DNA of 64,000 nt from positions 61,082,464-61,146,463 of the forward strand of contig NC_043011.1 of NCBI RefSeq assembly GCF_006345805.1, in the 5' to 3' direction. A program made the translations under genes and the position numbers. A model generated the notes under the pieces. It did not search any database, had not been told where the DNA came from, and saw only the letters and a list, made by a program, of their open reading frames with translations. Below are positions 1 through 61,441 of the stretch, in pieces. Numbering within the stretch: the stretch's first letter is position 1; every line of letters starts with the position of its first letter. The DNA comes from Octopus sinensis (taxonomy: Eukaryota).

Positions 1-1050
1 AGCAAGGCCTTTGACAGGGTTGATCATAAGATCCTTTTGAGAAAGCTGTCCAATATTGGTGTCACTGGAAAGCTACTGCAGTGGATCAAGTGCTTCCTGT
101 CTAACAGAACCCAACATGTTGTCGTCGAAAGAGTCAAATCCAGCCCAGCCAAAGTCAGTAGTGGCGTCCCACAAGGCACTGTGTTGGGCCCACTTCTCTT
201 CATCATCTACATTAATGACATCACTGACATCATCAAACACAGTAACATCAGAATCTTCGCTGATGCTTCCAAGCTCCAGAAGGTCATCAATGGCGTGGAT
301 GACCGAATAAGCCTTCAGTCAGACCTACTGGCTGTTGTCCAATGGGCGGAAAAGAACAACATGTTGCTAAACGAAGACAAATTCGAATTGATCCACTTTG
401 GAAGGGAGGACGCTCTGAAACTCCCATACTCCCTTCCTTCTAGTGAAACTCTCATGGCGTCTAACAACATCAGAGACTTGGGAGTATCTGTGGACAACAA
501 CATAAGCTGGGCTACACATATAAGCAGCAAAGTTGACATGTCCCGCAGAATGTGTTCCTGGATTCTCAGAACCTTCCAGTCGAAAGATTCCCACACCATT
601 ATCCTTCTCTTCTCCACTTTTGCCCGAACTCACCTGTATGATGTGGAAAATATTCCATCAGCACTGTCCAAATGATGTTGGTATCACCTTCAAAATACAT
701 CCAAGACTTGGATCCCGTGCCATCCGTCCACAACAAAAATCTAAATCGCATCTCATAACAACATTGCGGCACAATTATTTCACCTCATTAGACCCGCCCT
801 CTTCAACATTACACCAAGACACGTCAAAACAGAAACTGACCACACAAATTTCAAGAAGATTTTGGACAAATTCCTTCAAACAGTCCCGGACAAACCACCC
901 ACACCCGGATATGTCTCCGCAAACAATAACTCTCTGCTCGAATGGGTCTTGGTGCCCAAATCCTGAATTGAAAGACTTCACCAGGTGGTGCTATTAAGTT
1001 AGACATGGCCTGGGCCAATACTGGCCAAAACCTTTCTAAGTTATTCTAAG

Positions 1051-11384: not shown

Positions 11385-12550
11385 AAATCCTTAAATCCTT
11401 AAAAATGTTTTAGCCCGAAGGCCGCGGCCATGCTGGGGCACCACCGCTGAATGAGCTACACTAGTTTGTGAATCCACCTCTGATACGTGGCACTTGATCA
11501 ACAAGGGAGTTCGATGCTGCTGCCCGCATCCGTGTCTCCTGTCGTGAGGTAGGTTCATCTGGGACTCCCAACAAGAAGAGATCCAGTTTAGTTTTAAAGA
11601 AACCCACATCCACACCATGTAAGTCTCTCAGGCATTTAGGGAGTATGTTAAGAGCTGTGGTCCTCTGAAACCCAAGCTGTTGCAGTATCTGGACCTGTAT
11701 TTTGATGGTGATGTTGGAATCCTTGGCACCACGCAGCGGCGCCCCGTTCTGCGGTTGGAGTAACTTTGAATGCCAAAGTTTGGGACAAGACCCTCCAGGA
11801 TTTTCCAGATGTATATCACTGCATATCTCTCCCGCCTCCGCTCCAGGGAGAAGAGGTTTAATACCTTCAGTCTTTCCCAGTAGCTGACATTTTGCATTGA
11901 GACGATTTTCTTTGTGTAGCTTCTCTGAGTTGCTTCGAGTTCTGCTGTTTGTTTTATATTGTGGTGGTGACCAAAGTTGGGAGCAGTAGTCCAAGCGGCT
12001 GAGGACAAATGTTTTCCATAGGACCATCAGTGTCTCCTTCTCTCTTGTTCTGAAAGTTCGGAGAATCCATCCAGCTAGCCGTCTGCATTTTATCACCAGA
12101 TTAGCAATATGCATTTGGAAAGATGCATCATTGCTCATGTCAATGCCCAGGTCACGCACTGATTTTGACTCAGGGATTGCAATTCTTCCTGGGCCAGTGT
12201 ATCCAGTCTTCACGTCATTTACCTTTGTGTGCCAGTAGCGCAGGGCCTGGAACTTACCTGCATTAAACTGCATGTTGTTGTCCTCAGCCCACCTGTATAT
12301 TGTGTCCAGCTCATGTTGTAGATGCGCAATATTTTCAGGTTTTGTATTGCGTGGGAGACTTTTGTGTCATCTGCATAGCTAGCAAGGGTGGTCATCGTAG
12401 CAACTGAAGGCATGTCTGAAAGGGCCACTATGAACATCAGTGGCCCCAAGACAGTGCCCTGTGGGACACCGCTTGTTATTTGCGTTTCCCTGGAGGTGGC
12501 TCCATTGCTCACAACTGCCTGTTTTCTGTCTTTTAGGAAGTTGTGCAGAT
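11385..12550 (-). mobile_element. 5'-truncated CR1/L2-group LINE (RT domain, C-terminus, 3' UTR) inserted in (TA)n
   Basis: SGVPQGTVLGPLMF, SYADDTK, VRDLGI, GWILRTF, SRLDYCSQLWSP, LFSLERRRERY spread over frameshifted ORFs. Tail (AAGGATTT)x2. Both ends flanked by (TA)n. Confidence 0.93.
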
Positions 12551-12556
12551 AAATAC

Positions 12557-12589
<33 letters not shown>

Positions 12590-12594
12590 AATAC

Positions 12595-12639
<45 letters not shown>

Positions 12640-12644
12640 AATAC

Positions 12645-12686
<42 letters not shown>

Positions 12687-17002: not shown

Positions 17003-17092
<90 letters not shown>

Positions 17093-17198
17093 GTGTATAT
17101 ATATATAATATAATATATACATTCAAAATGTGACCGCGTGTGTACCGTTGGCGATTTTTTCCTCCGTCTTCTCTTCTTTGAATCTTTCCTTTTCCTAT

Positions 17199-17233
17199 GT
17201 TTCTGACGAAGAGCTCCACTCGAAACGTTAAAT
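17199..17233 (+). ncRNA. Minimal type I hammerhead ribozyme motif (family I)
   Basis: GTTT-CTGACGA-A-GAG CTCCA CTC-GAAAC-GTT-AAAT: intact core, short stems I and II, palindromic AACGTT stem III. Confidence 0.65.
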
Positions 17234-17504
17234 CCTCCTCTTTCTTTCTTTCCTTTCCCGAGTGTCCATACCACCATACTTATTCCACGTCCTCGCGTTC
17301 TTGTATGAATGTATGTACGTATGTACATGTGGGTGTATGTGTGTGTATGTGTGTGTGTGTTAGATATACATTGTAAGCTCGCCCACACTTTGCTTGGCTA
17401 GAGTAATAATTGAAATCTTGATGATGGTAATGCTGATGATAATACTGATGATACTACTACTGCTACTACTACTGCTACTACTACTGCTACTACTACTGCT
17501 TCTT

Positions 17505-17564
<60 letters not shown>

Positions 17565-17888
17565 GAATAATGAAACAAAGAGTTCCTAAAAGTTATCTGC
17601 GCATGAAGAAAAAAATTCAGAGACACATTATAAAAAATAACGTAGATAATAATTTGTAACTGCCAAAATCAGGAGATGTGAATTATTTTGTCTAGCCATA
17701 GAATATATTTGATAGTTTTTGATATTTGACAATGTTTATAGAATATCCTAGGGCTGATAACAGGAATCAGAACACAACGAATGTGATATCAATAAAGTGA
17801 GAGAAGAGAAGACACTATAAAACCACGATAACAATGTTATATATGATAATATGAAAAGACTCGTTGAATCAGTATCAGCATAAAATAA

Positions 17889-17919
<31 letters not shown>

Positions 17920-17934
17920 ATATAATATATATAT

Positions 17935-17971
<37 letters not shown>

Positions 17972-17997
17972 TGTATATATATATATATAGTATATAT

Positions 17998-18046
<49 letters not shown>

Positions 18047-18155
18047 GTGTATATATATATATATATTATATATATACATTCAAAATGTGACCGCGTGTGT
18101 ACCGTTGGCGATTTTTTCCTCCGTCTTCTCTTCTTTGAATCTTTCCTTTTCCTAT

Positions 18156-18190
18156 GTTTCTGACGAAGAGCTCCACTCGAAACGTTAAAT
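18156..18190 (+). ncRNA. Minimal type I hammerhead ribozyme motif (duplicate of 17199-17233)
   Basis: Identical sequence in the second unit of the tandem duplication. Confidence 0.65.
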
Positions 18191-18477
18191 CCTCCTTCTT
18201 TCTTTCTTTCCTTTCCCGAGTGTCCAATACCACCATACTTATTCCACGTCCTCACGTTCTTGTATGAATGTATGTACGTATGTACATGTGGGTGTATGTG
18301 TGTGTATGTGCGTGTGTGTGTGTGTGTGTGTGTTAGATATACATTGTAAGCTCGCCCACACTTTGCTTGGCTAGAGTAATAATTGAAATCTTGATGATGG
18401 TAATGCTGATGATAATACTGATGATACTACTACTGCTACTACTACTGCTACTACTACTGCTACTACTACTGCTTCTT

Positions 18478-18525
<48 letters not shown>

Positions 18526-18847
18526 GAATAATGAAACAAAGAGTTCCTAAAAGTTATCTGCGCATGAAGAAAAAAATTCAGAGACACATTATAAAAAATA
18601 ACGTAGATAATAATTTGTAACTGCCAAAATCAGGAGATGTGAATTATTTTGTCTAGCCATAGAATATATTTGATAGTTTTTGATATTTGACAATGTTATA
18701 GAATATCCTAGGGCTGATAACAGGAATCAGAACACAACGAATGTGATATCAATAAAGTGAGAGAAGAGAAGACACTATAAAACCACGATAACAATGTTAT
18801 ATATGATAATATGAAAAGACTCGTTGAATCAGTATCAGCATAAAATA

Positions 18848-19008
<161 letters not shown>

Positions 19009-19542
19009 ATATATATATACATACTTATAGGTTTTGTGCAAATTGTAGTAGTATCAAACACACCCATACCTATATTATACACGTACACATGTACAAATAT
19101 ATACACATGTATGCAAGCACACATATACATTCATATATTATACTACATTTATAGCTAGGCATACACATACAGTGAGGACTCATGTATACACACATAATTT
19201 TAGAGTTGATAACCACTGATAGGTTTCTGTAGGAATATAACAGTATAGAGAAATTTACATAGACGCTTATGCTCACACACATAGATAAGCACATACACAT
19301 ACTTAATCACACGCTCGCACACGTACACATACACATAGAGAAATGTAGAGAGACATTTTTGTGTATGTCTACAGAATACATGCGCAGGTGTGGCTGTGTG
19401 GTAAGAAGTTTGATTTCCGACCACATGGTTCGGAGACCAGTCCCACTGCGTTGCACCTTGGGCATGTGTCTTTTACTATAGCCTCGAGCCAACAAAAGCC
19501 TTGTAAGTAGATTTGGTAGACGGAAATTGAAAGAAGCCCGTC

Positions 19543-19620
<78 letters not shown>

Positions 19621-19622
<2 letters not shown>

Positions 19623-20166
19623 TTTAACAATTAAGGATAACCTCTTAATAAGGAATCTTAACAAGAAATTATCAGGTAGTTAGCGTGAAAAACCTCATAA
19701 AAGTAAAGAATTCGAAAATAATGTTTTCCTTTTGAACAAATTAATCATATCTATATTGTATAGAGGGCATTATTACACATAAATGCCTCACACTAAGAGG
19801 GACAAAGTCATTACTACCAAAATTACACTAATCATACCTAAATGCAGTTCTTCAAAGCAAGACATATAAAAAATGAATTTAGTTCTGTATCACCGTGATT
19901 TCACATTTAACTTACGTCTATGATCATCAGCAGAACTGATTCTGAACACATCATAAATAAACCACCAACCTTACCTAGCGAAGACGAATAGACATCTATT
20001 CACTCCGGCCAAGCACATGGAATGTTTATAAATCATATATCCGGTAAATGGCGGGCTTTTTCGAACTGCATGTCGGATAAGAAAAGTATTTCGGAATAAG
20101 TTTAACAATGACTTTGTCCCTCTTAGTGTGAGGCATTTATGTGTAATAATGCCCTCTATACAATAT
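19621..20166 (-). mobile_element. Hammerhead-containing non-coding element family A (retrozyme-like): ~478-nt unit plus a 60-bp inverted arm
   Basis: AGTTTAACAAT at both 19621 and 20099. 20107-20166 is the reverse complement of 19753-19812. Second copy at 47077-47520. Flanked by (TA)n. Confidence 0.8.
19881..19937 (-). ncRNA. Type I hammerhead ribozyme
   Basis: Minus strand: AGTTCTG-CTGATGA-TCATAGAC GTAA GTTAAATGT-GAAA-TCAC G GTGA-TA-CAGAACT. 7-bp stem I, intact core, near-palindromic stem III, AUA cleavage triplet. Confidence 0.85.
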
Positions 20167-22302: not shown

Positions 22303-22678
22303 AATCAGATTTAGGATTGAATCCAATTTTATAGTAAAATATTATATTATATTAAATTAGAGATAAAACCACTATTAGGCAAATCATACAATGAAAAACT
22401 CAAGCCAATACATAAGATTAATTAATTTATATTATTTTAAATATATATCAATCGTAGTGTTATACTAATTATCTTTTTTTTAATAATTTTGATATATATT
22501 TAAAATAATATAAATTAATTAATCTTATGTATTGGCTTGAGTTTTTCATTGTTTGATTTGCCTAATAGTGGTTTTATCTCTAATTTAATATAATATAATA
22601 TTTTACTATAAAATTGGATTCAATCCTAAATCTGATTTTCCCCTGTAAGTTTGGATTTATTCCCTAATATTTTATTAT
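22303..22678. mobile_element. Fold-back insertion of a Penelope-like element terminus in (TA)n
   Basis: Arms 22303-22451 and 22489-22637 are near-perfect inverted repeats. The sequence is similar to the PLE terminus at 58735-58882 (TTTTACTATAAAATTGGATT.AATCCTAAATCTGATTTT..CCCTGTAA.TTTGGAT.TATTCCCTAATATT). Confidence 0.85.
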
Positions 22679-22729
22679 AATATATATATATATATATATA
22701 TACATATGTAAGAATTTGACATATATATG

Positions 22730-22925
22730 TATAGTTGGAATTTATAGAAAGACGAAAGACGAAGATAGGTGTATGAACAACAAGCAAGTATTTAGTTTGA
22801 CGCTCGGGAAAATGAAAAATGTTTTTTACATTTCGAGCCTAAGCTCTTCAGCAGAACAGAATAAGAGAAAATAAACAGAGAGAGAATGAAAAAAACTTGT
22901 AGATTTCAGCGCTCCTGCATGGCGA
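22730..22925 (-). mobile_element. Short repeat related to family I with a decayed hammerhead-like core
   Basis: Minus strand CTGCTGAAGAGCTTAGGCTCGAAATGTAAAA. Similar copies at 31065-31300 and 47570-47715. Confidence 0.55.
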
Positions 22926-26164: not shown

Positions 26165-26495
26165 ATTTTTTTTGGATTTGGTTTGCAAGATTCTTTATTT
26201 GGGTTCGTGTGTTGAAGTATATTCTGTTGCGTCTGGCGAGAGTCATTTTCTTTTTGTGCCTTATGATTCTCACCGGTAAAATTTCCACTTATTTCTTATT
26301 TTTATTTTCCTAAAATTTTCGGTGCGTCTTGCAACCTTTTCAATAGTCTTGAGTCAAGACTATTGAAAAGGTTGCAAGACGCACCAAAAATTTTAGGAAA
26401 ATAAAAATAAGAAATAAGTGGAAATTTTACCGGTGAGTGTGTTATATTATAAGGCCCAAAAAGAAAATGACTCTCCCCAGACAGGACAGAATGCT
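26165..26495. repeat. Large palindrome (fold-back element family D) centred at 26353
   Basis: 84-bp arms 26269-26352 and 26354-26437 with one mismatch and a 1-nt spacer, extending imperfectly to ~26221/26492. Related single-arm copies at ~5430-5555 and ~36290-36420. Confidence 0.9.
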
Positions 26496-31299: not shown

Positions 31300-31374
<75 letters not shown>

Positions 31375-31517
31375 CGAGCTTCTTTCAGTTTCCATTTACC
31401 AAATCCACTTACAAGGCTTTGGTCGGCCCGAGAATGCTGGCGTCACGTAGTGGGACTGAACCCCAAACTATGTAGTTGAAAAGGAAGCTTCTTACCACAC
31501 AGCCACTCCTGCCTCTA
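30855..31517 (-). mobile_element. SINE family 2 split by a family-I-related element (31065-31300) in its internal microsatellite
   Basis: 3' half at 30855-31030 and 5' half at 31372-31517 match 43895-44287. Confidence 0.75.
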
Positions 31518-35978: not shown

Positions 35979-36275
35979 AATAGTAAAGAATAAAAAGGTT
36001 TGAATGGTACCACAAAGCACTATAATAGAAAAACAATGGGCAATACAAAAACCTGTTGTAATTTATCATTCATAGTCTGATAATATTTCGGAATAAAGTT
36101 TCTAAGAATATCTAAAGAAGGAATTTTATTACGAAATATCATATCAGACAATGGATGACTAAATTACAACAGGAATATAGCTCATTGTCTGTTTTATAGT
36201 GCATTGTTGTACCATTCAAAACTTTTTATTCTTTACAAACAATACACAATGCTTCAAGCAAACTACAATACTCTC
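35979..36275. mobile_element. Fold-back element family E with a decayed hammerhead-like core (36108-36144)
   Basis: ~35982-36095 is an imperfect inverted copy of ~36125-36236. Second copy at ~52435-52588. Inferred consensus ATAT-CTGAAGA-AGGAAT ATT ATTCC-GAAA-TA-TC. Confidence 0.6.
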
Positions 36276-40354: not shown

Positions 40355-40603
40355 ATGATAATTAGAAAACAGTGTTATTAGGTACACCTAGGATACGTAT
40401 GACGGTTCATGGAATCTAAGGCTATTTGATGTAGCCCGATGTCAGGATTCTTTTCCAGCAGTCTAATCTGTTGTGTGTATAAAATAATAATAACAATAAT
40501 AATAATAATAATAATAATGATAATAATAATAATAATAATAATAATAATCATAGTAATAAAAATAATGTAAAAACAAAAACAATTCCTATCATAGTGGGCG
40601 CAT

Positions 40604-40636
<33 letters not shown>

Positions 40637-40638
<2 letters not shown>

Positions 40639-40990
40639 GGCGCAGGAGTGGCTGTGTGATAAGAAGCCTGGTTCCGGGTTCAGTCCCACTGCATGGCATC
40701 TTGGGCAAGTGTCTTCTGCTATAACCTCAGGCTGACCAAAGCCCTGTGAGTGGATTTGGCAACTGGAAACTGATAGAAGCCTGTCGTGTGTATATATATA
40801 TATGTGTGTGTGTTTGTGTTTGTTTGTTCCACCACCATCACCTGACAACCGATGTTGGTGTGTTTACGTCCCCGTAGCTTATCGAGAATACGTACTAGAC
40901 TTATAAAGAATAACTCCTGGGGTCGATTTGTTCGACTAAAGCCGGTGCTCCAGTATGGTCGCAGTCAAATGACTGAAACAAGCAAAATAA
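40637..40990 (+). mobile_element. SINE family 2 (tRNA head, CORE-like segment, internal TA/TG microsatellite, LINE-like tail)
   Basis: AGGCGCAGGAGTGGCTGTGTG...GGGTTCAGTCCC...CTTGGGCAAGTG...GGTGCTCCAGTATGGTCGCAGTCAAATGACTGAAACA. Confidence 0.85.
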
Positions 40991-41461
40991 TATACATATA
41001 TGTATATAATGGTGGCTTATTCGCAATTTTATATCCTAATGGCAGAAATACAGTCGTCACTAAATTATTGCTAGAAATAAGAGCCAAAGCAAAGAAATAG
41101 CCTTGAAAAACAGTATCTTAATGATGGACAAGGGAGGTAATCTTCCTACAACAGCGAACCTAGCCAGATCGTCGACAACTTCGCATTTTGATATACATCA
41201 GTGGCACTCAGCGCGCCTATATAAACAAACACACTCAAAGAGTAAATTTAATTTACGGAAATTGTATTTGGAGCTAATGTTGTTACGCTTATGATTAAAT
41301 CAAGTTGACTTTATTTCAACGTTTGGCATGTTTTCAGCTGTCAGTTCTGTTACGTAAAGGAATGAAATGCCTTGCAGTTTCGATACTGTTCAGAGTATCA
41401 TCAGGCAATTGTGATATCGATCGGGGGTATGAAAGATTCATTCCGTCAGACAATACTGAAC

Positions 41462-41500
<39 letters not shown>

Positions 41501-43271
41501 ATTTTGTCTACCTGCCTGTCTGTCTGTCTATTTGTCTGTCTGTTTGTCTGTCTGTCTGTCCGTCCGTCTGTCTGTCTGTCTGTTTGTCTCTTTGTCTGTT
41601 TTCGTATGTATGTACCTGTCTTTCGGTCTGTCTGTCTGTTTATGTATGTATCTGCCTTTCTCTCTGTCATATCTGTCCGCCTGTCTGTCTGTCTATCAAT
41701 CTGTCTGTCTGTCTGTGTTTCTGTCTGTGTATCTATCCATGTATCTATCTCTCTGTCTGTCTCTCTGAGTATGTATGTATGTGTGTGTGTATGTATGTAT
41801 GTTTGGCTGTTATCTGTTATCCTTTTTGTCTCTCTCTCTCTCTTTCTCTCTCTATCTATTTTTCTATCTATATTCTGTCTATGTATCCATTTTTCTATCT
41901 ATCTGTCTGTCTGTCTGTATATCTATTATGAATACATACACATACATAGGTATACCTCAATCTGAGTCATTGTTTCCAAGACAAGCGACTTAACTCGAAA
42001 TTGCTTCAACCATTCTACATATTAAAAAGCAAATCAAACAATCGTTTAAAGGAAAATAATCATTAAAAATATAAAGTTAAGAAACATTTTTCAAGAGAAA
42101 CCAAAATTCCAAGAAAATATGAAACAAATGCCAAAACCATTTACTTGTTTGGTGATGACGTCGTGTTTTATTGACCAGGCGGAGCCAAGAAGGGGAACTT
42201 GGGGTTATGACATTCTTCAGGCATGCTTCCAATGAAGACCTTCGTATTCAATGTCAACGAGTAATAGAAACTTACTTTGCGTGCTTTGAATGCATTTACA
42301 TTTCTTGTTTCAGTTGGTTTAATGAGACATGCATCCACTCGTATCCGTTTCGCTTTTGGAAGCCTTAGGTCTCACATGAGGAGTCACCGGGTGAAGAGAA
42401 CGAATTTTAAACATTGGCAAATAGTAATTATTGAAACGTGTGTTGTTAATGGTCAATTTGATTAGATTTCTTTTCTGTCCTCGCTCAACTCTCATACTTC
42501 TCATCACAGCATTTCTTGGAAGGAAATATTTAGCGAGCAAATATAAATGTGTGTATGTGTGTGTTTGTGTGAGAATGTCCATCCGCGCGTGTGTGTGTAT
42601 GTGTGTAATGGCACCACTTTAACTCGAACATGATTTAATGTCTTCCACCATTTCCCCATAAAACGGCAATAACGAAGTCCCCGAATCATCGAATTACGAA
42701 GAAAAAAAAATCGAGCATTAGCTTTTCTTTTTGCAAGCGGAAATGTAGAGAGCTGAACTGACTTTGGTGCGAAGCCGCAATGAATATAGCAATATGTTCA
42801 TTGTAAAGGTGTCTAACAATTTTGCCACTGCGTCGCCTCTTCTCAATATATATTAATAAGTGTCTCATTAATGGAGCGTGGGTTGTGAATAAATCTGTGT
42901 GCAGAGTCAAAAGCATATTTAATAAAATATGTATTTAAAGAGTCGCGTGAGGCCAAATATATGTTTATTAAATATTTGGAGACTTCTCTGCATACGTGCC
43001 TACATATACATAAATATAGATATACGCATACATACGTAGTACATATACAAACACACGTGCTTATATTTATGTATATTTGCAAATGCAAAGCCCCTACGTA
43101 TGTATGCCTCTCTCGATCAGTCTGTCTGTCTGTCTGTCTCTCTCTCTATCTATCTGTCAATCAGTATTAATTCATATATGTGTAAGCATCTATATATATA
43201 CATATATATATATATACACATATATGTATATATACATGTATGTAGATATGTATATATATATAATTATATAT

Positions 43272-43894: not shown

Positions 43895-44287
43895 CCTTTT
43901 ACTCCTCTACTCTTTTACTTGTTTCAGTCATTTGACTGTGGCCATGCTGGAGCAGCGCCTTTAGTTGAGCAAATTGACCCCAGGTCTTATTCTTTGTAAG
44001 CCTAGTACTTATTCTATCGGTCGAACGGCTAAGTTATGGGGACGTAAACACACCAGCATTGGTTGTCAAGCGATGTTGGGCTGACAAACAGAGACACACA
44101 AACGTATACACACACATATAAATATACATACGGGCTTCTTTCAGTTTCCATCAACCAAATCCATGCATAAGGCTGTCGTCGGCCCGAGGCTATAGTAGAA
44201 GGCACTGCCCAAGGTGCCACGCAGTAGGACTGAACCCGGAACCATGTGGTCAGTAAACAACCCAATTACAACACAGCCACTGCTCTA
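43895..44287 (-). mobile_element. SINE family 2 copy
   Basis: Reverse-complement match to 40637-40990. Confidence 0.85.
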
Positions 44288-47076: not shown

Positions 47077-47520
47077 TTAACAATTAAGGATACCTCTTAA
47101 TAAGGGATCTTAACAAGAAATTATCAGGTAGTTAAGATCCCTTATGAAGAGGTTATCCTTAATTGTTAAATTTATTCCGAAATACTTTTCCTACATGCAG
47201 TTCGAAAAAGCCCGCCATTTACCGAATATATGATTTATAAACATTCCATGTGCTTGGCCGGAGTGAATAGATGTCTGTTCGCCTTCGCTAGGTAAGGTTG
47301 GTGGTTTATTTATGATGTATTCAGAATCAGTTCTGCTGAGGATCATAAGACGTAAGTTAAATGTGAAATCACGGTGATACAGAACTAAATTCATTTTTTA
47401 AATGTCTTGCTTTGAAGAACTGCATTTAGGTATGATTAGTGTAATTTTTGGTAGTAATGACTTTTCCCTCTTAGTGTGAGGCATTTATGTGTATAATGCC
47501 CTCTATACAATTATAGATAT
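47077..47520 (+). mobile_element. Second copy of family A (short inverted arm 47077-47133, then sense arm)
   Basis: 47171-47518 is the reverse complement of ~19748-20098. 47131-47170 is inverted to 47077-47115. Flanked by (TA)n. Confidence 0.82.
47329..47386 (+). ncRNA. Type I hammerhead ribozyme
   Basis: AGTTCTG-CTGAGGA-TCATAAGAC GTAA GTTAAATGT-GAAA-TCAC G GTGA-TA-CAGAACT. Within the core it differs from 19881-19937 only at the free N7 position; also a 1-nt indel in stem II. Confidence 0.85.
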
Positions 47521-51629: not shown

Positions 51630-52605
51630 TTATATATGTATGCATATATATATATACATATACATATACATATGTATATACATACATATATATGTATATA
51701 TATATGTGTGTGTATATGTGTGTGGACGTATATATGTACGTATGTATATATGAATATACAGGAGTGAGTGGCCAAAAGAATGGAAAGAGTTCTCACGCAT
51801 TTAATAAGTGTCACTTGTATTATTTAAAACACTTTGGTGTGCCTCAAATTATCGCTGACCGATGAAAGAAGCCCGTCCCTTGCAGGTTTTAGATTATCAA
51901 ATCTAAGACATGAAGGAGACGGGCTTCTTTTTGACGCCCTCGAAACTTCAGTTCGCAAGGAGCCGAATCGAACTTTCATATAATGCACACACACACTGAT
52001 ATGGGATATTTCTTTAGAAATATGACAGAGTAGAAAATTCGTCTACCCTCAGAATTACCCGGTACTCTACGGTAGCATTATTATATACTTCTATATTTAT
52101 GTTTGGGTATTCGTCGTGTGTGAATGTAAAATTGAAGAAATTGGAGTCAAGAAAACTGTTTGTTTGCATAATAAAATGTAGTTGTGTTTCCTCAGTGGAT
52201 ATTCAAGTGTTGTGTCCGTTAGTTTAAAATCTTCGAATTCCAGGCCTTCCCCAACCGTCCTGCTTCGAATTTTGTAACTACGGATGTACCAGCACACACG
52301 AAATTGAGACATGGCCGACCTCACACACTTCTCATAAGGAATTCCGGAAGAAGCATCGTGCGACCACTGCTGAGACGCTTCTAAAAAATAGAAAAGAAAA
52401 GCCGTTAGAAAACCGATTATAGCAGCGACTCCATCTAAGAATATCGGAAGAAGGAATATTATTCTGAAATATCAGACTATGGACGACTAAATTACAACAG
52501 GTATATAGCCCATTGTCTGTACTGTACCATTCAAAACTTTTTTCTTTACAAACAATGCACAATGCTTCAAGCAAATTACAGTACTCTCATATATATATAT
52601 ATATA

Positions 52606-52960
52606 TTCTCTTTTACTATCTTTTACTTGTTTCAGTCATTTGACTGCGGCCATGCTGGAGCACCGCCTTTAATCGAGCAACTCGACCCCGGGACTTATTC
52701 TTTTGTAAGCCCAGTACTTATTCTATCGGTCTCTTTTGCCGAACCACTAAGTAACTGGGACATAAGCACATCAGGATCGGTTGTCAAGCAATGCTAGGGG
52801 GACAAATACAGACACACAAACACACACATATACATATACATATATACGACGGGCCCGAGGCTATAGTAGAAGACACTTGCCCAAAGTGCCACGCAGTGGG
52901 ACTGAACCCGGAAACCATGTGGTTGGTAAACAAGCTACTTACCATACAGTCACTCCTGCG

Positions 52961-52963
<3 letters not shown>
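52606..52963 (-). mobile_element. SINE family 2 copy
   Basis: Reverse-complement match to 40637-40990, with a small internal deletion. Confidence 0.85.
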
Positions 52964-53000
<37 letters not shown>

Positions 53001-53196
53001 GTTGAAATATATATAATATATATAATAAATATTAGGAATATATCCAAATTTACAGGGAAAAAAATCAGATTTAGGATTAAATCCAATTTTATAGTAAAAT
53101 ATTATAAAATATTATTGAGACAAAACCATATTTTGCAAAACAAACAAGGAAAGACTTAATCAATACATAAAATTTAATAAATAGTCAAAAAAACCG

Positions 53197-53238
53197 CCAC
53201 TACAATCGTTCTTGTCTTGATCGACAATCTTCAGGTGG
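53197..53238 (-). ncRNA. Hammerhead ribozyme, inverted copy of 58665-58707
   Basis: Same sequence but GAAAC reads GAAC (1-nt homopolymer loss: mutation or sequencing error). Confidence 0.7.
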
Positions 53239-54981
53239 ACTTCCAATCTAAAAAATCAAAATTTTAAAATATAAAAATAATACTTTTAAATAATTAAAGT
53301 ATAAATGAAAAAATATAAGATATAATCCATATATAAACCTATATTAATCCATATCGAAAATATAGACTAATTACCACGAATTCCCTAAAAAAACCATAAT
53401 AAAACAAAACTCTTAAAAACACATATAACGATAAAATCTCCCTTTGCTAAACCTATAACAAACTTAAAGTAACCCCCCTAACCTAAACATCACACACCAA
53501 ATACACACGTAAACCACAGACTCACGACTTATACACATACCTATACTAACTTATAAACCTCAATATACACCAAACCCACTCCCTCCCACACACAGACAAA
53601 TTAACACATACATCCCAAAACCTAAATAACAAACCCATATACACATTCACACCACAAAACACACACTCACACGCAAAAACACTCACACACAAAAGATACA
53701 TATACTCCTCACATATACGCCTATACATACTCACTAAACTCGACATATACAACAATACTTACACACCCACAAAAACCATTATATACATTTATGAGCTTTA
53801 ACTCACCTTAGCATCTCTAACAAACAACTTGCAGTAACCCAATCCCATTCTCTATGCCTACCTCACTACTACACTATTCCATTCACATTCCAAGCAACGC
53901 TAGTCCACCACCCGGTTATTCACGTGGCAAAACGAACACCACTCAAAAATTGTGAATGAAACAATGTAAAAAAATAACCAACACCTAAAATAGACAAAAT
54001 ACCACAAATTACCTAAAAAAACCATGATAAACCAAAACTCATAAAAGCATATAACGATAAAATCTCCCTTTGCTAAACCCTATAACAAACTTATATAGCA
54101 ATCCCCTAACCTAAACATTCACACACAAAAAAACCCACACGTAAACCACAGACCCAAGACTTATACACAAACCTATACTAACTTATAAACCTCAATATAA
54201 CCAAAAACCACTCCCTCCCCACACAGACAATTAACACATACATCCCAAATCCTAAATAACAAACCCAAATACACATTCACACACAAACACACACACACAC
54301 AAAACACATACACAACAGATACATATGCTCCCTCACATATACGCATATACATACTCACTAAAACTCGATATATACAACAATATTTACACCCCACTCATAC
54401 AGATAAATAAATTAATTATACAATTAAAAACTCACAACCAATCTCATATACATAAACACTCTTATGAAAACAACAATAAATACATCGTAATTAACCAGAA
54501 TATCAAAAATAACATTATGACATAAGGATAATCAAATACATACTTACAATTCAGTTACAAATTATGAAGTGAAATTAGATTTTTAGCCGTTAAAAACCAA
54601 ACAAAATTACGTTACCATGGAAATAACTATGTAAAAAAAGAATACGCGCCATAGAAAGTAAACGTCATTCATAGTATGAATGGAGAAATATAATAAATGG
54701 AACTAAAAAACTATTTCCACGTAGCAAACCAACGCTACTTAAAAAAAATTATTATGAATGGATTCTTTAAAAACTATCATGAAAAATCAATTATATACAT
54801 TTATGAGCTTTAGCTCACCCTAGCAACTCTAACAAACAACTTACAGTAACCCATACTCAATACCTACCTCATTACCACCCTAATCCATTCACAATTCCAA
54901 ACAACACTAGTCCACCACACGGTTACAATTCCCAACTCTACCCATTCATTCATAATTTCAACGACGTTCCCTTCAACAACT

Positions 54982-55395
54982 CTAATCTAATTTATATAAG
55001 TTCCTTGTTTTATCAGATTGTACTATAATACTATCCATATTTCTCATATCTTTAATTTTAATTGCTAAATTCCTTAAATATTCATTATTTCTATTTGGGT
55101 ATTTATGGAATTCAATATTTTTTACCACCTTCCATATACTATCTTCAAGTAATTGTAATTCTTTATTAAATGGAGGTTCCTTTCTAGATTTAAATTTAGA
55201 GGTATAATTATCATTCCTACTATCAATATCATTAAATAAATAAAAATTATAGTAAAAAGCTTTCCATTTAATTCTAGAAATAAAATCTTTAACATTATTA
55301 ACAAGTTTCAAGATAAATTCCTTTCTAGAAGGAATAGGAATATCTTTCAAAGATGAATCCCAAAACAGCGGTTCTATCTTACCTGTAAAATCCAT
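54982..55395 (-). pseudogene. N-terminal fragment of the Penelope-like ORF (inverted, truncated by deletion)
   Basis: MDFTGK...SSLKDIPIPSRKEFILKL...FISRIKWKAF...VQSDKTRNLYKL. The DKT motif precedes the PLE RT core. Confidence 0.85.
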
Positions 55396-55419
55396 AATTT
55401 GCGAAATTGAGGTATTACA

Positions 55420-55870
55420 GTAGAGATAAATCTAATTGTATATTAAATAATAATTGTGATATTAACGATGTAGTGTATAAATGTATAGTTACATTACATG
55501 ATAATAACTTTAAGAATAATAATTACAATAAAGCGGTTTATATAGGTTCTACTTCCTCAAAAATAAAACTAAGAATTGCACAACATATGAATTCTTTTAA
55601 AAATAAAAACTTAATCAACTCAACCGGACTTAGTAAGTATATTTGGAGTCTTAAATCACTAAATATTAATTATAGTTTAATATGGGAAATAATTTGTAAA
55701 ACTAAATCATATAATATAGGAGCTAATTGTTGTTATTATGCTCTATATAATGAGTTTAAAGAAATTTTATTTTATAAGTATGATAATTTACTTAATACTG
55801 GGGAGGAGCGCAAAATAAAATGTAGACACAAGTTACTTACTTATATAATAAGTTTCATGATAAATAGCAA
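55420..55870 (+). pseudogene. GIY-YIG endonuclease part of the 5'-truncated upstream PLE copy
   Basis: DVVYKC...VYIGST...RIAQH..SF...STGLSKYIW...WEII...KCRH. Confidence 0.88.
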
Positions 55871-56051
55871 TAATAGTTCCCTTTTAGGTTATTTTAGTTT
55901 AAATTAGTTTAGATGATATATTTTGGTTATGTTGTCTAGGATTTAATTATAGTTAGTCTTTATTGATATTTCTTTGTTTTAATTAGTTCATTTTAATGTA
56001 TATTAATTTAGCAGTTTATGGTACGTTAAAAACTTTAATAATTTATATTAG

Positions 56052-56084
<33 letters not shown>

Positions 56085-58664
56085 TTTTTTATTATGTATT
56101 TTTATTTTGCATTTGTTATATGTATTTTGAGGATATATTTATATGTTTTGGGTGTTATTAGTGGTGTTTTTATTGAGTTTTGTATGTATGTGTGAATGTT
56201 TAAGATCCCTTTTGTTTTTGTTTTTTATTTTATTTGTAGGTTGAATTGACAGATTTTATTTGGGTATTGTCTTTTATAATAAAGTACACACCCATAACAA
56301 TTATAAGTGCCCACTTCATTCGTTGTACATGGGTTTGCATGTGAGCCTCAGCATATGCACTAACGGCCACTCCAGCCCCACATGGATAAATAAACACATA
56401 CATCCCCAACCACCATCACAATGAAACCACACCCATACAATGACAAAACTCCCCCATACCCTATTTACACCTACATAGTAATCCAATATATTCTTCCATA
56501 CATGGACGCAAGTGCGTGAAGCACATGAACATAATTAGTACGTACAACCCCTAATACACACTAATATATACGTATCAAGCTCGACCTCCACAGTGATAAG
56601 TTTACACACAATCACACCCAGATGGGTGAATTGCACAACCAGTGAATGCTCACACATACGGGCGCGATTACATTGTTGCATATATCGAGCCAAAATTGTA
56701 TGCATATGTACATGTGAGGGGTACACGTAAATAAATGAAGTGAGCGTGTACCCCCTGTATTTATACCCGTGCGTGAATATACACATGGAGACTACCACAC
56801 AGGTACAAATGTGTTTAGAAATGGGAGCCCCATCACTACACTTAATGTATACTCTCACCCATCCGCACGGATGTGTAAGTGTATCTCCGGTGTATATGTT
56901 GAGGCTTATATGTAGAGTTGTTGAAGGGAACGTCGTTGAAATTATGAATGAATGGGTAGAGTTGGAATTGTAACCGTGTGGTGGACTAGTGTTGTTTGGA
57001 ATTGTGAATGGATTAGGGTGGTAATGAGGTAGGTATTGAGTATGGGTTACTGTAAGTTGTTTGTTAGAGTTGCTAGGTTGAGCTAAAGCTCATAAATGTA
57101 TATAACTGATTTTTCATGATAGTTTTTAAAGAATCCATTCATAATAATTTTTTTTAAGTAGCGTTGGTTTGCTACGTGGAAATAGTTTTTAGTTCCATTT
57201 ATTATATTTCTCCATTCATACTATGAATGACGTTTACTTTCTATGGCGCGTATTCTTTTTTTACATTAGTTATTTCCATGGTAACGTAATTTTGTTTGGT
57301 TTTTTAACGGCTAAAAATCTAATTTCACTTCATAATTTGTAACTGAATTGTAAGTATGTATTTGATTTATCCTTATGTCATAATGTTATTTTTGATATTC
57401 TGGTTAATTACGATGTATTTATTGTTGTTTTCATAAGAGTGTTTATGTATATGAGATTGGTTGTGAGTTTTTAATTGTATAATTAATTTATTTATCTGTA
57501 TGAGTGTGTGGGTGTAAATATTGTTGTATATATCGAGTTTTAGTGAGTATGTATATGCGTATATGTGAGGGAGCATATGTATCTGTGTGTATGTGGTGTT
57601 TGTGTGTGTGTGTGTTTGTGTGTGAATGTGTATTTGGGTTTGTTATTTAGGATTTGGGATGTATGTGTTAATTTGTCTGTGTGGGGAGGGAGTGGTTTTT
57701 GGTGTATATTGAGGTTTATAAGTTAGTATAGGTTTGTGTATAAGTCTTGGGTCTGTGGTTTACGTGTGGGTTTTTTGTGTGTGAATGTTTAGGTTAGGGG
57801 GATTGCTATATAAGTTTGTTATAGGGTTTAGCAAAGGAGATTTTATCGTTATATGCTTTTATGAGTTTTGGTTTATCATGGTTTTTTTAGGTAATTTGTG
57901 GTATTTTGTCTATTTTAGGTGTTGGTTATTTTTTACATTGTTTCATTCATAATTTTTGAGTGGTGTTCGTTTTGCCACGTGAATAACCGGGTGGTGGACT
58001 AGCGTTGCTTGGAATGTGAATGGAATAGTGTAGTAGTGAGGTAGGCATAGAGAATGGGATTGGGTTACTGCAAGTTGTTTGTTAGAGATGCTAAGGTGAG
58101 TTAAAGCTCATAAATGTATATAATGGTTTTTGTGGGTGTGTAAGTATTGTTGTATATGTCGAGTTTAGTGAGTATGTATAGGCGTATATGTGAGGGAGTA
58201 TATGTATCTTTTGTGTGTGAGTGTTTTGCGTGTGAGTGTGTGTTTTGTGTGTGAATGTGTATATGGGTTTGTTATTTAGGTTTTGGGATGTATGTGTTAA
58301 TTTGTCTGTGTGGGGGGAGGGAGTGGGTTTTGGTGTATATGAGGTTTATAAGTTAGTATAGGTATGTGTATAAGTCGTGAGTCTGTGGTTACGTGTGTGT
58401 ATTTGTGTGTGAATGTTTAGGTTAGGGGGTTTACTTTATAGGTTTGTTATAGAGTTTAGCAAAGGGAGATTTTATCGTTTATGTTTTTAGAGTTTTGTTT
58501 TATCATGGTTTTTTTAGGGAATTCGTGGTAATTAGTCTATATTTTCGATATGGATTATATATAGGTTATATATGGATTATATACTTATATTTTTTCATTT
58601 ATACTTTAATTATTTAAAAGTATTATTTTTATATTTTAAAATTTTGATTTTTTAGATTGGAAGT

Positions 58665-58707
58665 CCACCTGAAGATTGTCGATCAAGACAAGAAACGATT
58701 GTAGTGG
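58665..58707 (+). ncRNA. Type I hammerhead ribozyme in the PLE terminal repeat
   Basis: CCAC-CTGAAGA-TTGTC GATCAA GACAA-GAAAC-GATT-GTA-GTGG: canonical core and all three stems. Predicted cleavage after 58703, ~235 nt upstream of the ORF ATG. Confidence 0.9.
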
Positions 58708-58937
58708 CGGTTTTTTTGACTATTTATTAAATTTTATGTATTGATTAAGTCTTTCCTTGTTTGTTTTGCAAAATAGTGGTTTTGTCTCAAATAATATTTT
58801 ATAATATTTTACTATAAAATTGGATTTAATCCTAAATCTGATTTTTTTTCCCTGTAAATTTGGATATATTCCCTAATATTAATTTATATAATATTGATAA
58901 TTTTGTATATTGAGTGTAATACCTCAATTCGCAAATT

Positions 58938-61441
58938 ATGGATTTTACAGGTAAGATAGAACCGCTGTTTTGGGATTCATCTTTGAAAGATATTCCTATT
59001 CCTTCTAGAAAGAATTTATCTTGAAACTTGTTAATAATGTTAAAGATTTTATTTCTAGAATTAAATGGAAAGCTTTTTACTATAATTTTATTTATTTAAT
59101 GATATTGATAGTAGGAATGATAATTATACCTCTAAATTTAAATCTAGAAAGGAACCTCCATTTAATAAAGAATTACAATACTTGAAGATAGTATATGGAA
59201 GGTGGTAAAAAATATTGAATTCCATAAATACCCAAATAGAAATAATGAATATTTAAGGAATTAGCAATTAAAATAAAGATATGAGAAATATGGATAGTAT
59301 TATAGTACAATCTGATAAAACAAGGAACTTATATAAATTAGATGTTAAATTATATGAAAACTTTTAGGGAAAGAAATAATTAAAAAATATAAAATTGTTC
59401 CAGATGATATTCTTTATAATATTAATAAGGCCTCTAAAGTAGTAATGTTAAAATATGAGTTGGATAATAAAACTGAACCTTATGTACCTCTGCACCCCAG
59501 AATTACTCTTAAAGACCATAAAGATAATTTTTATTCAGACCCTAAAGTTAGATTAATTTGCCATGTAAATCGGACCTAGGTAAATTAAGTAAATTTATTT
59601 TAGATAAATATATTGATAAGTTAAATAAACTTAATTATTTAAAATTATGGTTTAGTAATAATAATACATTGAAATGGTTTAATAATATTAAAGATAAAAA
59701 TCGTTATAAATTTATTCAAATAGATATAGATAATTATTATTCTTCTATTAATGAAATTGTGTTTAATAAAGCGCTTATTTTCGCAATGAATAAAGTGGGC
59801 ATGTCACGGGAAGAAGTTAATGTAATTAAATTGGCTAGGAAATCGCTAATTAAATATAAAAATAAATTATGGGCTAGGAATGATACTAGAGATGTTTTGA
59901 TATACCTATGGGAGCACCAGATTCTGCACAGGCTACTGATTTAGTAGGTATTTTTCTTTTATCTGAACTCCAATTAGAAAATCTTAAGATAGAGGGTGGT
60001 TTATATAGAGACGATCTTCTACTAGTTACAAAGAATTGTACTAATAGGAATCTAGAAGTATATAAGAAAAAACTATATAGTTTCTTTAAAAGATATGGTT
60101 TACGTATTACTATATATAAGGAGAATTATAATGTTAATTATTTAGATGTTAATTTTAATCTTATTACAGGTAAAACACAACCATTTCATAAACTTAATGA
60201 GAACCTTAGATATATAAATGTAATAGTAATCACCCATTTTCTATTAAAAAATCGTTGATTAATAATATAAGTAAACGTATTTCATTACTCTCTTATGATA
60301 TAGAGATTTTTAATAAACATGCTAATTTTATAATGAGGCCCTTAGAGGGGCAGGTTATAATAAGAATATTAAATTTTATAATATTAGCGATAATGATTTA
60401 AATGATAATTTTCGAGATACTTCTAATAATAATTATAATTTTGTTACGTTTAGTGGTAAAAATAATAGATATTAAAAAAAAATAATAAAAATGATAAAAA
60501 TATAAATAAGAATAATAATAATAATAAAATAATAATAATAATATAAATAAGAATAATATAAATAAAAATAAATTTAATAATTATTATAATAATTATATTG
60601 ATAAATTTAATAATATTAATAATTCCTTAAATGCTGTACATAGATATAATTCTGATAATAATTTTAATAAAATAAAGAATTATAAATATATTATAATAAT
60701 GATAATAATAATAAGGTTAATAAGAATAAAATTTGGTTAATAGTTCCTTATGGAGATCAAGTTAAAACGAATATTATTAAAGAGATTTTAGATGTTATAG
60801 AACTATTTATTAGAGATAATCGTAAATATAGGAACATTTTCTCTTTTAATAATTTTGGAGTTGGTTACTCTACCACTAATAATGTTGGTAACATTATTTC
60901 TTTCTTCATTTAATAAATATAAACTGAATAATTTTTATAAAAAGAATATTTGATAATAATATTAATAATGATAAGACTTATATTAATTGTACATGTAGAG
61001 ATAAATCTAATTGTATATTAAATAATAATTGTGATATTAACGATGATGTAGGGTATAAATGTATAGTTACATTACATGATAATAACTTTAAGAATAATAA
61101 TTACAATAAAGCGGTTTATATAGGTTCTACTTCCTCAAAAATAAAACTAAGAATTGCACAACATATGAATTCTTTTAAAAATAAAAACTTAATCAACTCA
61201 ACCGGACTTAGTAAGTATATTTGGAGTCTTAAATCACTAAATATTAATTATAGTTTAATATGGGAAATATTTGTAAAACTAAATCATATAATATAGGAGC
61301 TAATTGTTGTTATTTATGCTCTAATGAGTTTAAGAAATTTTATTTTATAAGTATGATAATTTACTTAATACTGGGGAGGAGCGCAAAATAAAATGTAGAC
61401 ACAAGTTACTTTACTTATATAATAAGTTTCATGATAAATAG
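58938..61441 (+). CDS. Penelope-like polyprotein: reverse transcriptase + Asn-rich linker + Cys-rich GIY-YIG endonuclease (frameshifted as assembled)
   Basis: SLKDIPIPS, DKT, TLKDHK..F...PKVRLI, IDIDNYYSSI, MGAPDSA..DLVG, GLYRDDLL, VNYLDV, NCTC...C...C, VYIGST, CYLC..E, CRH. Reading is broken mainly by single-base indels. Confidence 0.85.

What the first reader, a model, noticed from the sequence alone, without database searches (positions are those of the whole stretch)
19621..20166. Retrozyme-like family A: ~478-nt circularly permuted unit with an intact hammerhead
Seen: this copy starts and ends with the same 11-mer (19621, 20099). The independent copy at 47131-47518 reads straight through that junction (…AATTGTTAAA|TTTATTCCGAAATAC…), so the template was circular or tandem. 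Both copies have an intact type I HHR, differing in the core only at the unconstrained N7 position, and no convincing ORF. Known: non-LTR retrozymes of animals are HHR-bearing repeats that give small circular RNAs and are thought to be mobilised by Penelope-like RTs. Inference: this is a retrozyme family in this genome, possibly undescribed, producing a ~480-nt circRNA.
Basis: partly seen in the sequence, partly recalled or inferred. Interest (0 to 1): 0.85.

Follow-up and report, generated by a model that had tools for sequence, protein, structure and literature searches.

The report
Hammerhead retrozyme moved by Penelope enzymes
This is a short, non-coding, head-to-tail repeat carrying a predicted self-cutting hammerhead RNA, likely from an octopus, whose insertion pattern suggests it is likely copied into the genome by a Penelope-type retrotransposon enzyme; it is probably a new member of a known class, and the circular RNA it would make is not shown.

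Summary
Largely confirmed. A 478-nt, 33% GC, non-coding unit occurs twice in the window (95% identical), each copy with a type I hammerhead on one strand. The head-to-tail junction is read through in copy B and in contigs of all 4 public runs laid. Corrections: the hammerhead has a U·U at the base of stem II (precedent: axolotl HHR_Amex2, weak as a monomer). The copies are not plain monomers: each is a two-armed inverted insertion in (TA)n with the same two outer ends (about 19623 and 19755) and 3-4 nt overlaps at the inversion. This matches Penelope-like (PLE) insertions and PLE reverse transcription from two internal start sites. The long arms cross the intact cleavage site, so the template was a circle or an uncut multimer. 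One RNA-like run shows six private A-to-G changes on the hammerhead strand, likely A-to-I editing. The junction is also multi-copy in DNA runs, so a circRNA is not shown. Cleavage is untested, no two-hammerhead tandem was seen, and no genome was available to exclude a longer coding parent. Verdict: likely a non-autonomous PLE derivative (non-LTR retrozyme), probably undescribed, in an octopod. New member of a known kind.

The parts
19621..20098 (-). One full 478-nt unit (copy A long arm); the RNA strand is the minus strand
   Evidence: Period from the 11-mer; junction 20098->19621 in runs X11 and X14; circular fold z = -4.0 on this strand, -1.5 on the other (60 shuffles each)
20099..20109 (-). 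11-nt overrun into a second turn of the unit
   Evidence: Identical to 19621-19631
19881..19937 (-). Type I hammerhead: stem I 7 bp, core 19930-19924 and 19902-19899, stem II with U·U base and a GUAA loop, palindromic stem III, predicted cut between 19888 and 19887 after an AUA triplet
   Evidence: Descriptor scan with shuffle control; folds
20110..20166 (+). Inverted short arm of copy A (copy of 19753-19812), joined by a 3-nt overlap at 20107-20109 and ending in a TA-rich flank
   Evidence: BLAST 60/60; junction print
19621..19623 (.). Distal recurrent insertion end (inferred reverse-transcription start 2), about 265 nt downstream of the cut site
   Evidence: Left end of both window copies; five listed contig pieces in X1, X4 and X11 start at 19623, and X11 and X14 show TA-rich loose ends there
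19748..19759 (.). Proximal recurrent insertion end (inferred reverse-transcription start 1), at a predicted 6-bp hairpin (19764-19750); exact base is ambiguous with the TA flank
   Evidence: Right end of both copies; loose ends at 19748 and 19759 and the depth peak at 19757-19790; hairpin
19623..19754 (-). About 130-nt 'tail' between the two ends; PLE tails are reported as 30-40 bp
   Evidence: Arm maps; tail length from Craig 2021 and Frangieh 2024
19547..19620 (.). (TA)n target on the left of copy A
   Evidence: Sequence
47077..47134 (-). Inverted short arm of copy B (matches 19623-19682), joined by a 4-nt overlap at 47131-47134
   Evidence: BLAST 96.7% over 60; junction print
47131..47518 (+). 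Long arm of copy B: about 40 nt of tail, the junction, then 20098 to about 19755, ending in (TA)n
47329..47386 (+). Type I hammerhead of copy B (N7 = G, one extra A in stem II)

Best explanation
This is a 478-nt non-coding hammerhead repeat that is likely a non-autonomous Penelope-like element (a non-LTR retrozyme): its RNA is predicted to be cut, probably as a dimer, and would be joined into a ~478-nt circle, which a Penelope enzyme likely copies into (TA)n from two fixed start sites. Shown: the unit, the hammerhead motif, the absence of an ORF, a head-to-tail junction shared by independent copies, and two-armed inverted insertions in (TA)n with the same two outer ends. Inferred steps: (1) tandem copies are transcribed on the hammerhead strand; (2) neighbouring hammerheads pair through the palindromic stem III and cut, and a host ligase closes monomers; (3) a PLE RT-endonuclease nicks both strands of (TA)n and starts one cDNA at about 19755 and one at about 19623; (4) the long cDNA runs through the intact cleavage site and past one full turn (489 nt in A), and the two cDNAs join by 3-4 nt of complementarity, leaving an inverted two-arm insert. 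My separate odds: PLE mobilisation 0.85, non-autonomous unit 0.8, a circRNA exists 0.5.
For: Both copies have the same left end (19621/19623) and right end (about 19755), but different inversion points and flanks. The same ends recur in other runs with TA-rich loose ends, and depth peaks lie next to both ends in X1, X11 and X14 (in X4 the second peak is clear, the first shifted slightly). Craig 2021 names inverted arms, tails and (TA)n targets as PLE marks. Frangieh 2024 shows a PLE enzyme cutting and extending both target strands and starting at two internal RNA sites downstream of the hammerhead, which makes the tail. The junction is shared by copy B, by X11 and X14 (53 and 101 nt on the short side), and by DNA contigs in X1 and X4 (tables 5, 5c, 8). 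The unit folds strongly on the hammerhead strand only (z -4.0 vs -1.5), with the ribozyme at the tip of a rod. The cofold of two local hammerheads puts stems I and III in dimer register and is 6.3-9.5 kcal/mol below two monomers. All 6 of 6 listed changes private to X11 are A-to-G on the hammerhead strand; five of the six sit in a predicted helix (p about 6e-4 against the 10/34 baseline). A Hydra-type PLE with the same insertion style lies in the same window. A U·U-based hammerhead occurs in an axolotl retrozyme that self-cleaves (22% in 1 h as a monomer, more as a dimer), and circles are reported for the axolotl retrozymes.
Against: No circle was observed: contigs cannot show ends or circularity, and the junction is multi-copy in DNA runs. 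No record held two complete hammerheads in tandem. The U·U and the slipped stem II register predict weak cleavage, and the dimer MFE still slips stem II. In the only PLE assayed, uncut RNA was the main substrate and hammerhead mutants did not block insertion. In Li 2026 only 1 of 9 retrozyme dimers cleaved. Variants break fewer predicted pairs than chance only weakly (9 vs 13.1 expected, P = 0.06). The editing signal rests on low-depth contigs (depth about 3-4) in one run whose RNA status is a guess, with no matched DNA; X14 shows no such excess. The unit has no similarity to the neighbouring Hydra element's end, so the partner enzyme is unidentified. Depth falls steeply at 20063-20109 in X4, which may be an edge effect or truncation.
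Confidence: 0.6

Rival explanations
1. Same non-autonomous PLE derivative, but it spreads from uncut linear head-to-tail transcripts. The U·U hammerhead cuts little and no stable circRNA accumulates.
For: U·U base and slipped stem II. PAc uses unprocessed RNA, and no reads began or ended at its cut site. 8 of 9 Xenopus dimers did not cleave. The junction exists in DNA, so multimers alone explain all the anatomy.
Against: Among the 40 listed letter changes and 10 indels none falls in stem I, stem III or a conserved core letter, while N7 takes three states; this is suggestive and not significant for so short a stretch. The axolotl U·U hammerhead does cleave, better as a dimer.
Confidence: 0.25
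2. The copies are 5'-truncated pieces of a longer coding PLE whose terminal region holds a 478-nt tandem duplication.
For: The insertion anatomy is that of autonomous PLEs. The neighbouring Hydra element has ~410-bp direct repeats in its non-coding region. Read-through past the junction was followed for at most 160 nt (X14 record 17). 167 loose ends were not displayed and no genome could be searched.
Against: There is no coding remnant in the unit (tblastn with two PLE proteins gave best E 0.48). The share of laid sequence running on into unlike letters is 0.02 in X1 and 0 in X4, and none of the 12 displayed X1/X4 loose ends looks like a fixed exit; by eye they resemble variants or relatives of the unit. 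The whole unit folds as one stable structure.
Confidence: 0.12
3. The unit spreads at the DNA level (satellite, foldback or rolling-circle DNA element) and the hammerhead is a passenger.
For: Tandem junction and inverted arms can arise from DNA repair or fold-back. The window is rich in palindromic repeats.
Against: Two fixed ends downstream of a hammerhead, (TA)n targeting and unequal arms match PLE reverse transcription. There are no terminal inverted repeats common to the copies, because the arms differ between A and B. The fold asymmetry and the A-to-G signal are on the hammerhead strand.
Confidence: 0.03

Closest known systems
Non-LTR retrozymes of animals (Cervera and de la Pena 2020, PMC7229834; Li et al. 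2026, bioRxiv 10.64898/2026.07.22.740005)
   Same: Short non-coding unit, type I hammerhead, GC below 50%, head-to-tail junction, stable predicted fold, PLEs in the same genome.
   Different: 478 nt is above the 170-400 nt of the 2020 paper but inside the 51-972 bp range of the 2026 survey. The window copies are dispersed two-arm inverted inserts, not arrays. The 2026 main text has no relevant mention of inverted arms or tails. Circles and cleavage are not shown here.
Axolotl HHR_Amex2 / Rtz_353 (PMC7229834)
   Same: U·U mismatch at the base of helix II; predicted better cleavage as a dimer.
   Different: Stem III here is an 11-nt near-palindrome (4 bp with a 3-nt loop as a monomer), and stem II is longer, with an internal loop and a GUAA tetraloop. 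No sequence comparison was made.
Penelope-like elements: PAc/Poseidon (PMC11167929) and Hydra clade (PMC8557442)
   Same: Hammerhead upstream of two fixed ends, a tail between them, inverted arms, and AT-rich or (TA)n targets.
   Different: No RT or GIY-YIG ORF. The tail is about 130 nt instead of 30-40 bp. No DNA similarity to the Hydra-type element in this window.
Non-autonomous Chlamys PLEs such as MRC1 (PMC8557442, passage)
   Same: Short PLE derivatives forming head-to-tail insertions.
   Different: Most Chlamys lack canonical hammerheads and occur mainly in green algae.

Membership tests
Non-LTR retrozyme | Type I hammerhead core with stems I-III | tested here: met
   2 hits in the window, 0 of 20,000 shuffles at the same stem lengths. 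U·U at 10.1-11.1 has a retrozyme precedent. Rfam models did not hit.
Non-LTR retrozyme | Short unit (150-450 bp typical, 51-972 bp surveyed), GC below 50% | tested here: met
   478 nt, 32.8% GC; ranges.
Non-LTR retrozyme | No protein-coding ORF | tested here: met
   no tRNA gene either.
Non-LTR retrozyme | No LTR, PBS or PPT | not tested
   No dedicated PBS or PPT search was run; the copies have inverted arms, not direct LTRs.
Non-LTR retrozyme | Tandem array with at least two consecutive hammerhead-bearing units | tested here: inconclusive
   The head-to-tail junction is present in copy B and in all 4 runs laid, but no record spans two hammerheads; no genome held.
Non-LTR retrozyme | Transcribed on the hammerhead strand | tested here: inconclusive
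   Contigs in two runs guessed to be RNA; the A-to-G cluster in X11 points to this strand but is low-depth and lacks matched DNA.
Non-LTR retrozyme | Accumulates as unit-length circular RNA | not testable with these tools
   Only assembled contigs were available, and the junction is also in DNA.
Non-LTR retrozyme | Self-cleavage as monomer or dimer | not testable with these tools
   Folding only.
Penelope-like element (insertion signature) | Inverted truncated arm next to the main copy | tested here: met
   2 of 2 window copies.
Penelope-like element (insertion signature) | Two fixed ends separated by a tail, downstream of the hammerhead | tested here: met
   Ends at about 19623 and 19755 in both copies and in other runs; the tail is about 130 nt, longer than the reported 30-40 bp.
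Penelope-like element (insertion signature) | (TA)n or AT-rich target | tested here: met
   All four flanks are (TA)n or TA-rich.
Autonomous Penelope-like element | RT plus GIY-YIG ORF in the unit | tested here: not met
   A linked ORF elsewhere in the genome could not be tested.

The most novel reading that the evidence does not exclude
An octopod retrozyme whose ~478-nt circular RNA is A-to-I edited along its rod and is copied by a Penelope enzyme from two fixed start sites at once, running round the circle through the re-ligated hammerhead site. Each two-armed insert would then be a direct record of rolling-circle twin priming, and the unit a ready substrate for testing the proposed retrozyme-PLE partnership.
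Probability: 0.3. Interest if true: 0.7.

Novelty: new member of a known kind. Interest (0 to 1): 0.45.

Why it matters
The papers read treat PLE mobilisation of animal retrozymes as a hypothesis, resting on shared hammerheads, co-occurrence and pLTR homology. Here the inserts themselves carry the PLE signature and map two candidate start sites to within a few bases. That gives a concrete test: do a PLE enzyme and this RNA, as circle or dimer, give inserts starting at those sites? My library searches found no report of a hammerhead retrozyme in a cephalopod. The class itself is well known, and a retrozyme with circRNAs is already described in mussel, so the biological surprise is modest.

Tried and rejected
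Whole-genome copy mapping was not possible: no genome is held. Two exact motif scans of metagenome contigs and one of viral contigs found nothing. Rfam: no match at gathering score in the window; 7 matches at E<=10 around copy A, all far below their gathering scores and none a hammerhead. Earlier scan findings: nothing in three look-ups. Similarity of the unit to seven other repeats in the window, including the Hydra element's end: none above shuffles except a marginal score for 35983-36236 (1 of 100 shuffles reached it; seven tests, not pursued). The idea that the junction coinciding with an insertion end is informative was dropped, because the junction is defined by copy A's start. Simple fold-back of one cDNA was rejected for copy B, because its inverted arm continues into unit sequence beyond the junction. 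Junction-spanning contigs in X11 and X14 were rejected as proof of circles. Pfam on five fragments of the neighbouring PLE gave only a sub-threshold GIY-YIG match (20.4 bits vs 22.6), so its clade call rests on motifs and homologues. A literature search for PLE priming with microhomology (2022 on) returned 0 papers, and one search returned nothing PLE-specific.

Full report
1. Observation. Copy A begins after a (TA)n run at 19621. Its first 11 bases recur at 20099-20109, giving a 478-nt unit of 32.8% GC. BLAST of 19621-20166 against the window finds one other copy, at 47077-47520, 95.1% identical over 366 columns; it reads through the 20098|19623 junction for about 40 nt. A type I hammerhead descriptor run on both strands of the 64-kb window gave 2 hits, one per copy. 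In 20,000 dinucleotide shuffles of the unit, 3 gave a loose hit and 0 gave stems as long as seen. The conserved core letters differ only at N7. The longest ATG-started frame over two turns is 25-28 codons.

2. The ribozyme is complete but not canonical. Stem I has 7 bp, stem III is a near-palindrome and the triplet is AUA, but position 10.1-11.1 is U·U in both copies. The lowest-energy local fold slips stem II over G12/A13; forcing the active fold costs 6.4 kcal/mol in A and 4.0 in B (such models ignore core contacts). Two local copies cofold with stems I and III in the dimer register, 6.3-9.5 kcal/mol below two monomers, though stem II stays slipped. Rfam has no hammerhead hit. A precedent exists: axolotl HHR_Amex2 has a U·U at the base of helix II, cleaves 22% in an hour as a monomer, and cleaves better as a dimer (PMC7229834).

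3. Copy A is a 489-nt arm plus an inverted arm (20110-20166) identical at 60 of 60 bases to 19753-19812. Copy B is a ~58-nt arm matching 19623-19682 plus an inverted ~388-nt arm. In both, the left end is at 19621-19623 and the right end at about 19755, each against (TA)n or TA-rich DNA, while the inversion points differ. The inversions have 3-nt (A) and 4-nt (B) overlaps (two cases, no significance test). Craig 2021 lists inverted arms, a 30-40 bp tail and (TA)n targets as PLE features (PMC8557442). Frangieh 2024 shows a PLE protein cutting and extending both target strands and starting at two internal RNA sites downstream of the hammerhead, the gap being the tail (PMC11167929). I read the two ends as such start sites, about 133 and 265 nt downstream of the cut, with an unusually long tail of about 130 nt. 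Joining of two cDNAs by short complementarity resembles L1 twin priming (recalled, not from a call). Both long arms cross an intact cleavage site, and A's arm exceeds one unit. The template was therefore a circle or an uncut multimer, not a cut linear monomer (inference).

4. Public runs. Of 24 runs listed, 20 hold the unit or part of it, from 11 studies; 18 hold at least 0.26 of its words, under five organism labels. I laid 4 of the 24. All 29 bins are covered in all four. The joint 20098->19621 is in X11 and X14 (53 and 101 nt on the short side). It is also in the DNA runs: variant joints at depth 27 and 150 in X1 and 201 and 22 in X4, and an X1 contig of depth 1908 that runs through the 11-mer. 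Junction contigs in RNA-like runs therefore do not show circles. Five listed pieces start at 19623, TA-rich loose ends occur at 19623, 19748 and 19759, and depth peaks at 19655-19705 and 19757-19790 in X1, X11 and X14, so the two ends are family-wide. The share running on into unlike sequence is 0.02 (X1) and 0 (X4). However, 167 loose ends were not shown and contigs are short, so a coding parent is not excluded.

5. Structure and expression. The unit folded as a circle reaches -116.5 kcal/mol on the hammerhead strand (z -4.0) and z -1.5 on the other (60 shuffles each). I tested 31 of the 40 listed letter changes, leaving out the six private to X11 and three minor rows (19770, the second letter at 19963, 20078). 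Nine break a predicted pair against 13.1 expected (P = 0.06); two pairs change on both sides (19989/19998 and 19680/19796). This is weak support. Of the 40 rows (3 more not shown), six are found only in X11, and all six are A-to-G on the hammerhead strand, against 10 of 34 among the rest (p about 6e-4). Five of them lie in one predicted helix and none has a 5' G, which fits ADAR preferences (recalled). Against this, they rest on low-depth contigs (depth about 3-4), the run is only guessed to be RNA, there is no matched DNA, and X14 shows no excess.

6. Host and partner. Named homologues of two neighbouring retroelement proteins are from Octopus bimaculoides (47%) and Argonauta hians (44%). This suggests an octopod but does not prove it. 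A decayed PLE at 53005-64000 has RT and GIY-YIG remnants with KWK, DKT and CxCX5C motifs, matching the Hydra clade description. It has its own hammerhead-like motif at 58669 and an inverted arm starting in (TA)n. A small relative at 22303-22680 shows the classic ~40-nt tail. The family A unit has no detectable similarity to that element's end, so the enzyme that moves it is unknown.

7. Comparison with what is known. It works like a PLE-dependent non-autonomous element. As a non-LTR retrozyme it meets the hammerhead, size, GC and no-ORF tests. The tandem two-hammerhead array and expression tests are inconclusive; circles and cleavage could not be tested. Li 2026 argues that animal retrozymes derive from PLE pLTRs, found cleavage in only 1 of 9 dimers tested, and focused on vertebrates. 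Searches for retrozyme, hammerhead, Penelope and octopus or cephalopod showed no paper describing such a family. The library is incomplete, Repbase and Dfam were not available, and the unread supplement of PMC7229834, which shows further invertebrate retrozymes, may bear on this.

8. Papers seen. Li 2026: parts 1-3 of 5 plus a term search. Cervera 2020: abstract, Results parts 1-2 of 3 and Discussion; supplement not readable. Craig 2021: passages and section 11. Frangieh 2024: parts 1-3 of 4. Cervera 2014 (PMC4209133): part 1 of 4 and three supplement passages. Other papers: search listings only.

9. Verdict. A real, multi-copy hammerhead repeat, likely a non-autonomous PLE derivative of the non-LTR retrozyme kind and probably an undescribed family. 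Its added value is that the inserts map two likely PLE start sites and carry a hint of A-to-I editing. The circRNA remains a prediction. New member of a known kind; interest 0.45.

Noticed in passing
window 53005-64000: Frameshifted Hydra-type Penelope-like element in tandem and inverted arrangement, starting in (TA)n: RT about 58940-60350, GIY-YIG about 61000-61400 and 55416-55850, hammerhead-like motif at 58669 with U-A at the base of stem II, and a long non-coding region with ~410-bp direct repeats.
   Followed up: partly
window 22303-22680: Small two-arm inverted insert in (TA)n related to the end of the Hydra-type element, with a ~40-nt tail on one arm only.
   Followed up: partly
window 17006-19029: ~950-bp tandem duplication (94.8% identical) with a minimal hammerhead-like motif in each unit (17203 and 18160, + strand); a different family.
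   Followed up: no
window 22831-22851 (-) and 41378-41404 (-): Further hammerhead core-like motifs that did not pass the full stem descriptor.
   Followed up: partly
window 26221-26492, 35983-36236, 43164-43235, 51865-51930: Palindromic repeats that may be other two-arm Penelope-type remnants.
   Followed up: no
window 19657, 19894 and 19915 (loose ends): Related subfamilies appear in the runs; some loose ends suggest a C rather than U at hammerhead position 11.1, so relatives may have a canonical stem II base.
   Followed up: no
window 1-675 (+) and 11461-12674 (-): Fragments of LINE-type reverse transcriptase ORFs; the second was used only to infer the host.
   Followed up: partly
window 19376-19567: A SINE-like repeat directly left of copy A's (TA)n, with several other copies in the window (near 31300-31512, 40600-40990, 43910-44280, 52620-53000).
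   Followed up: no
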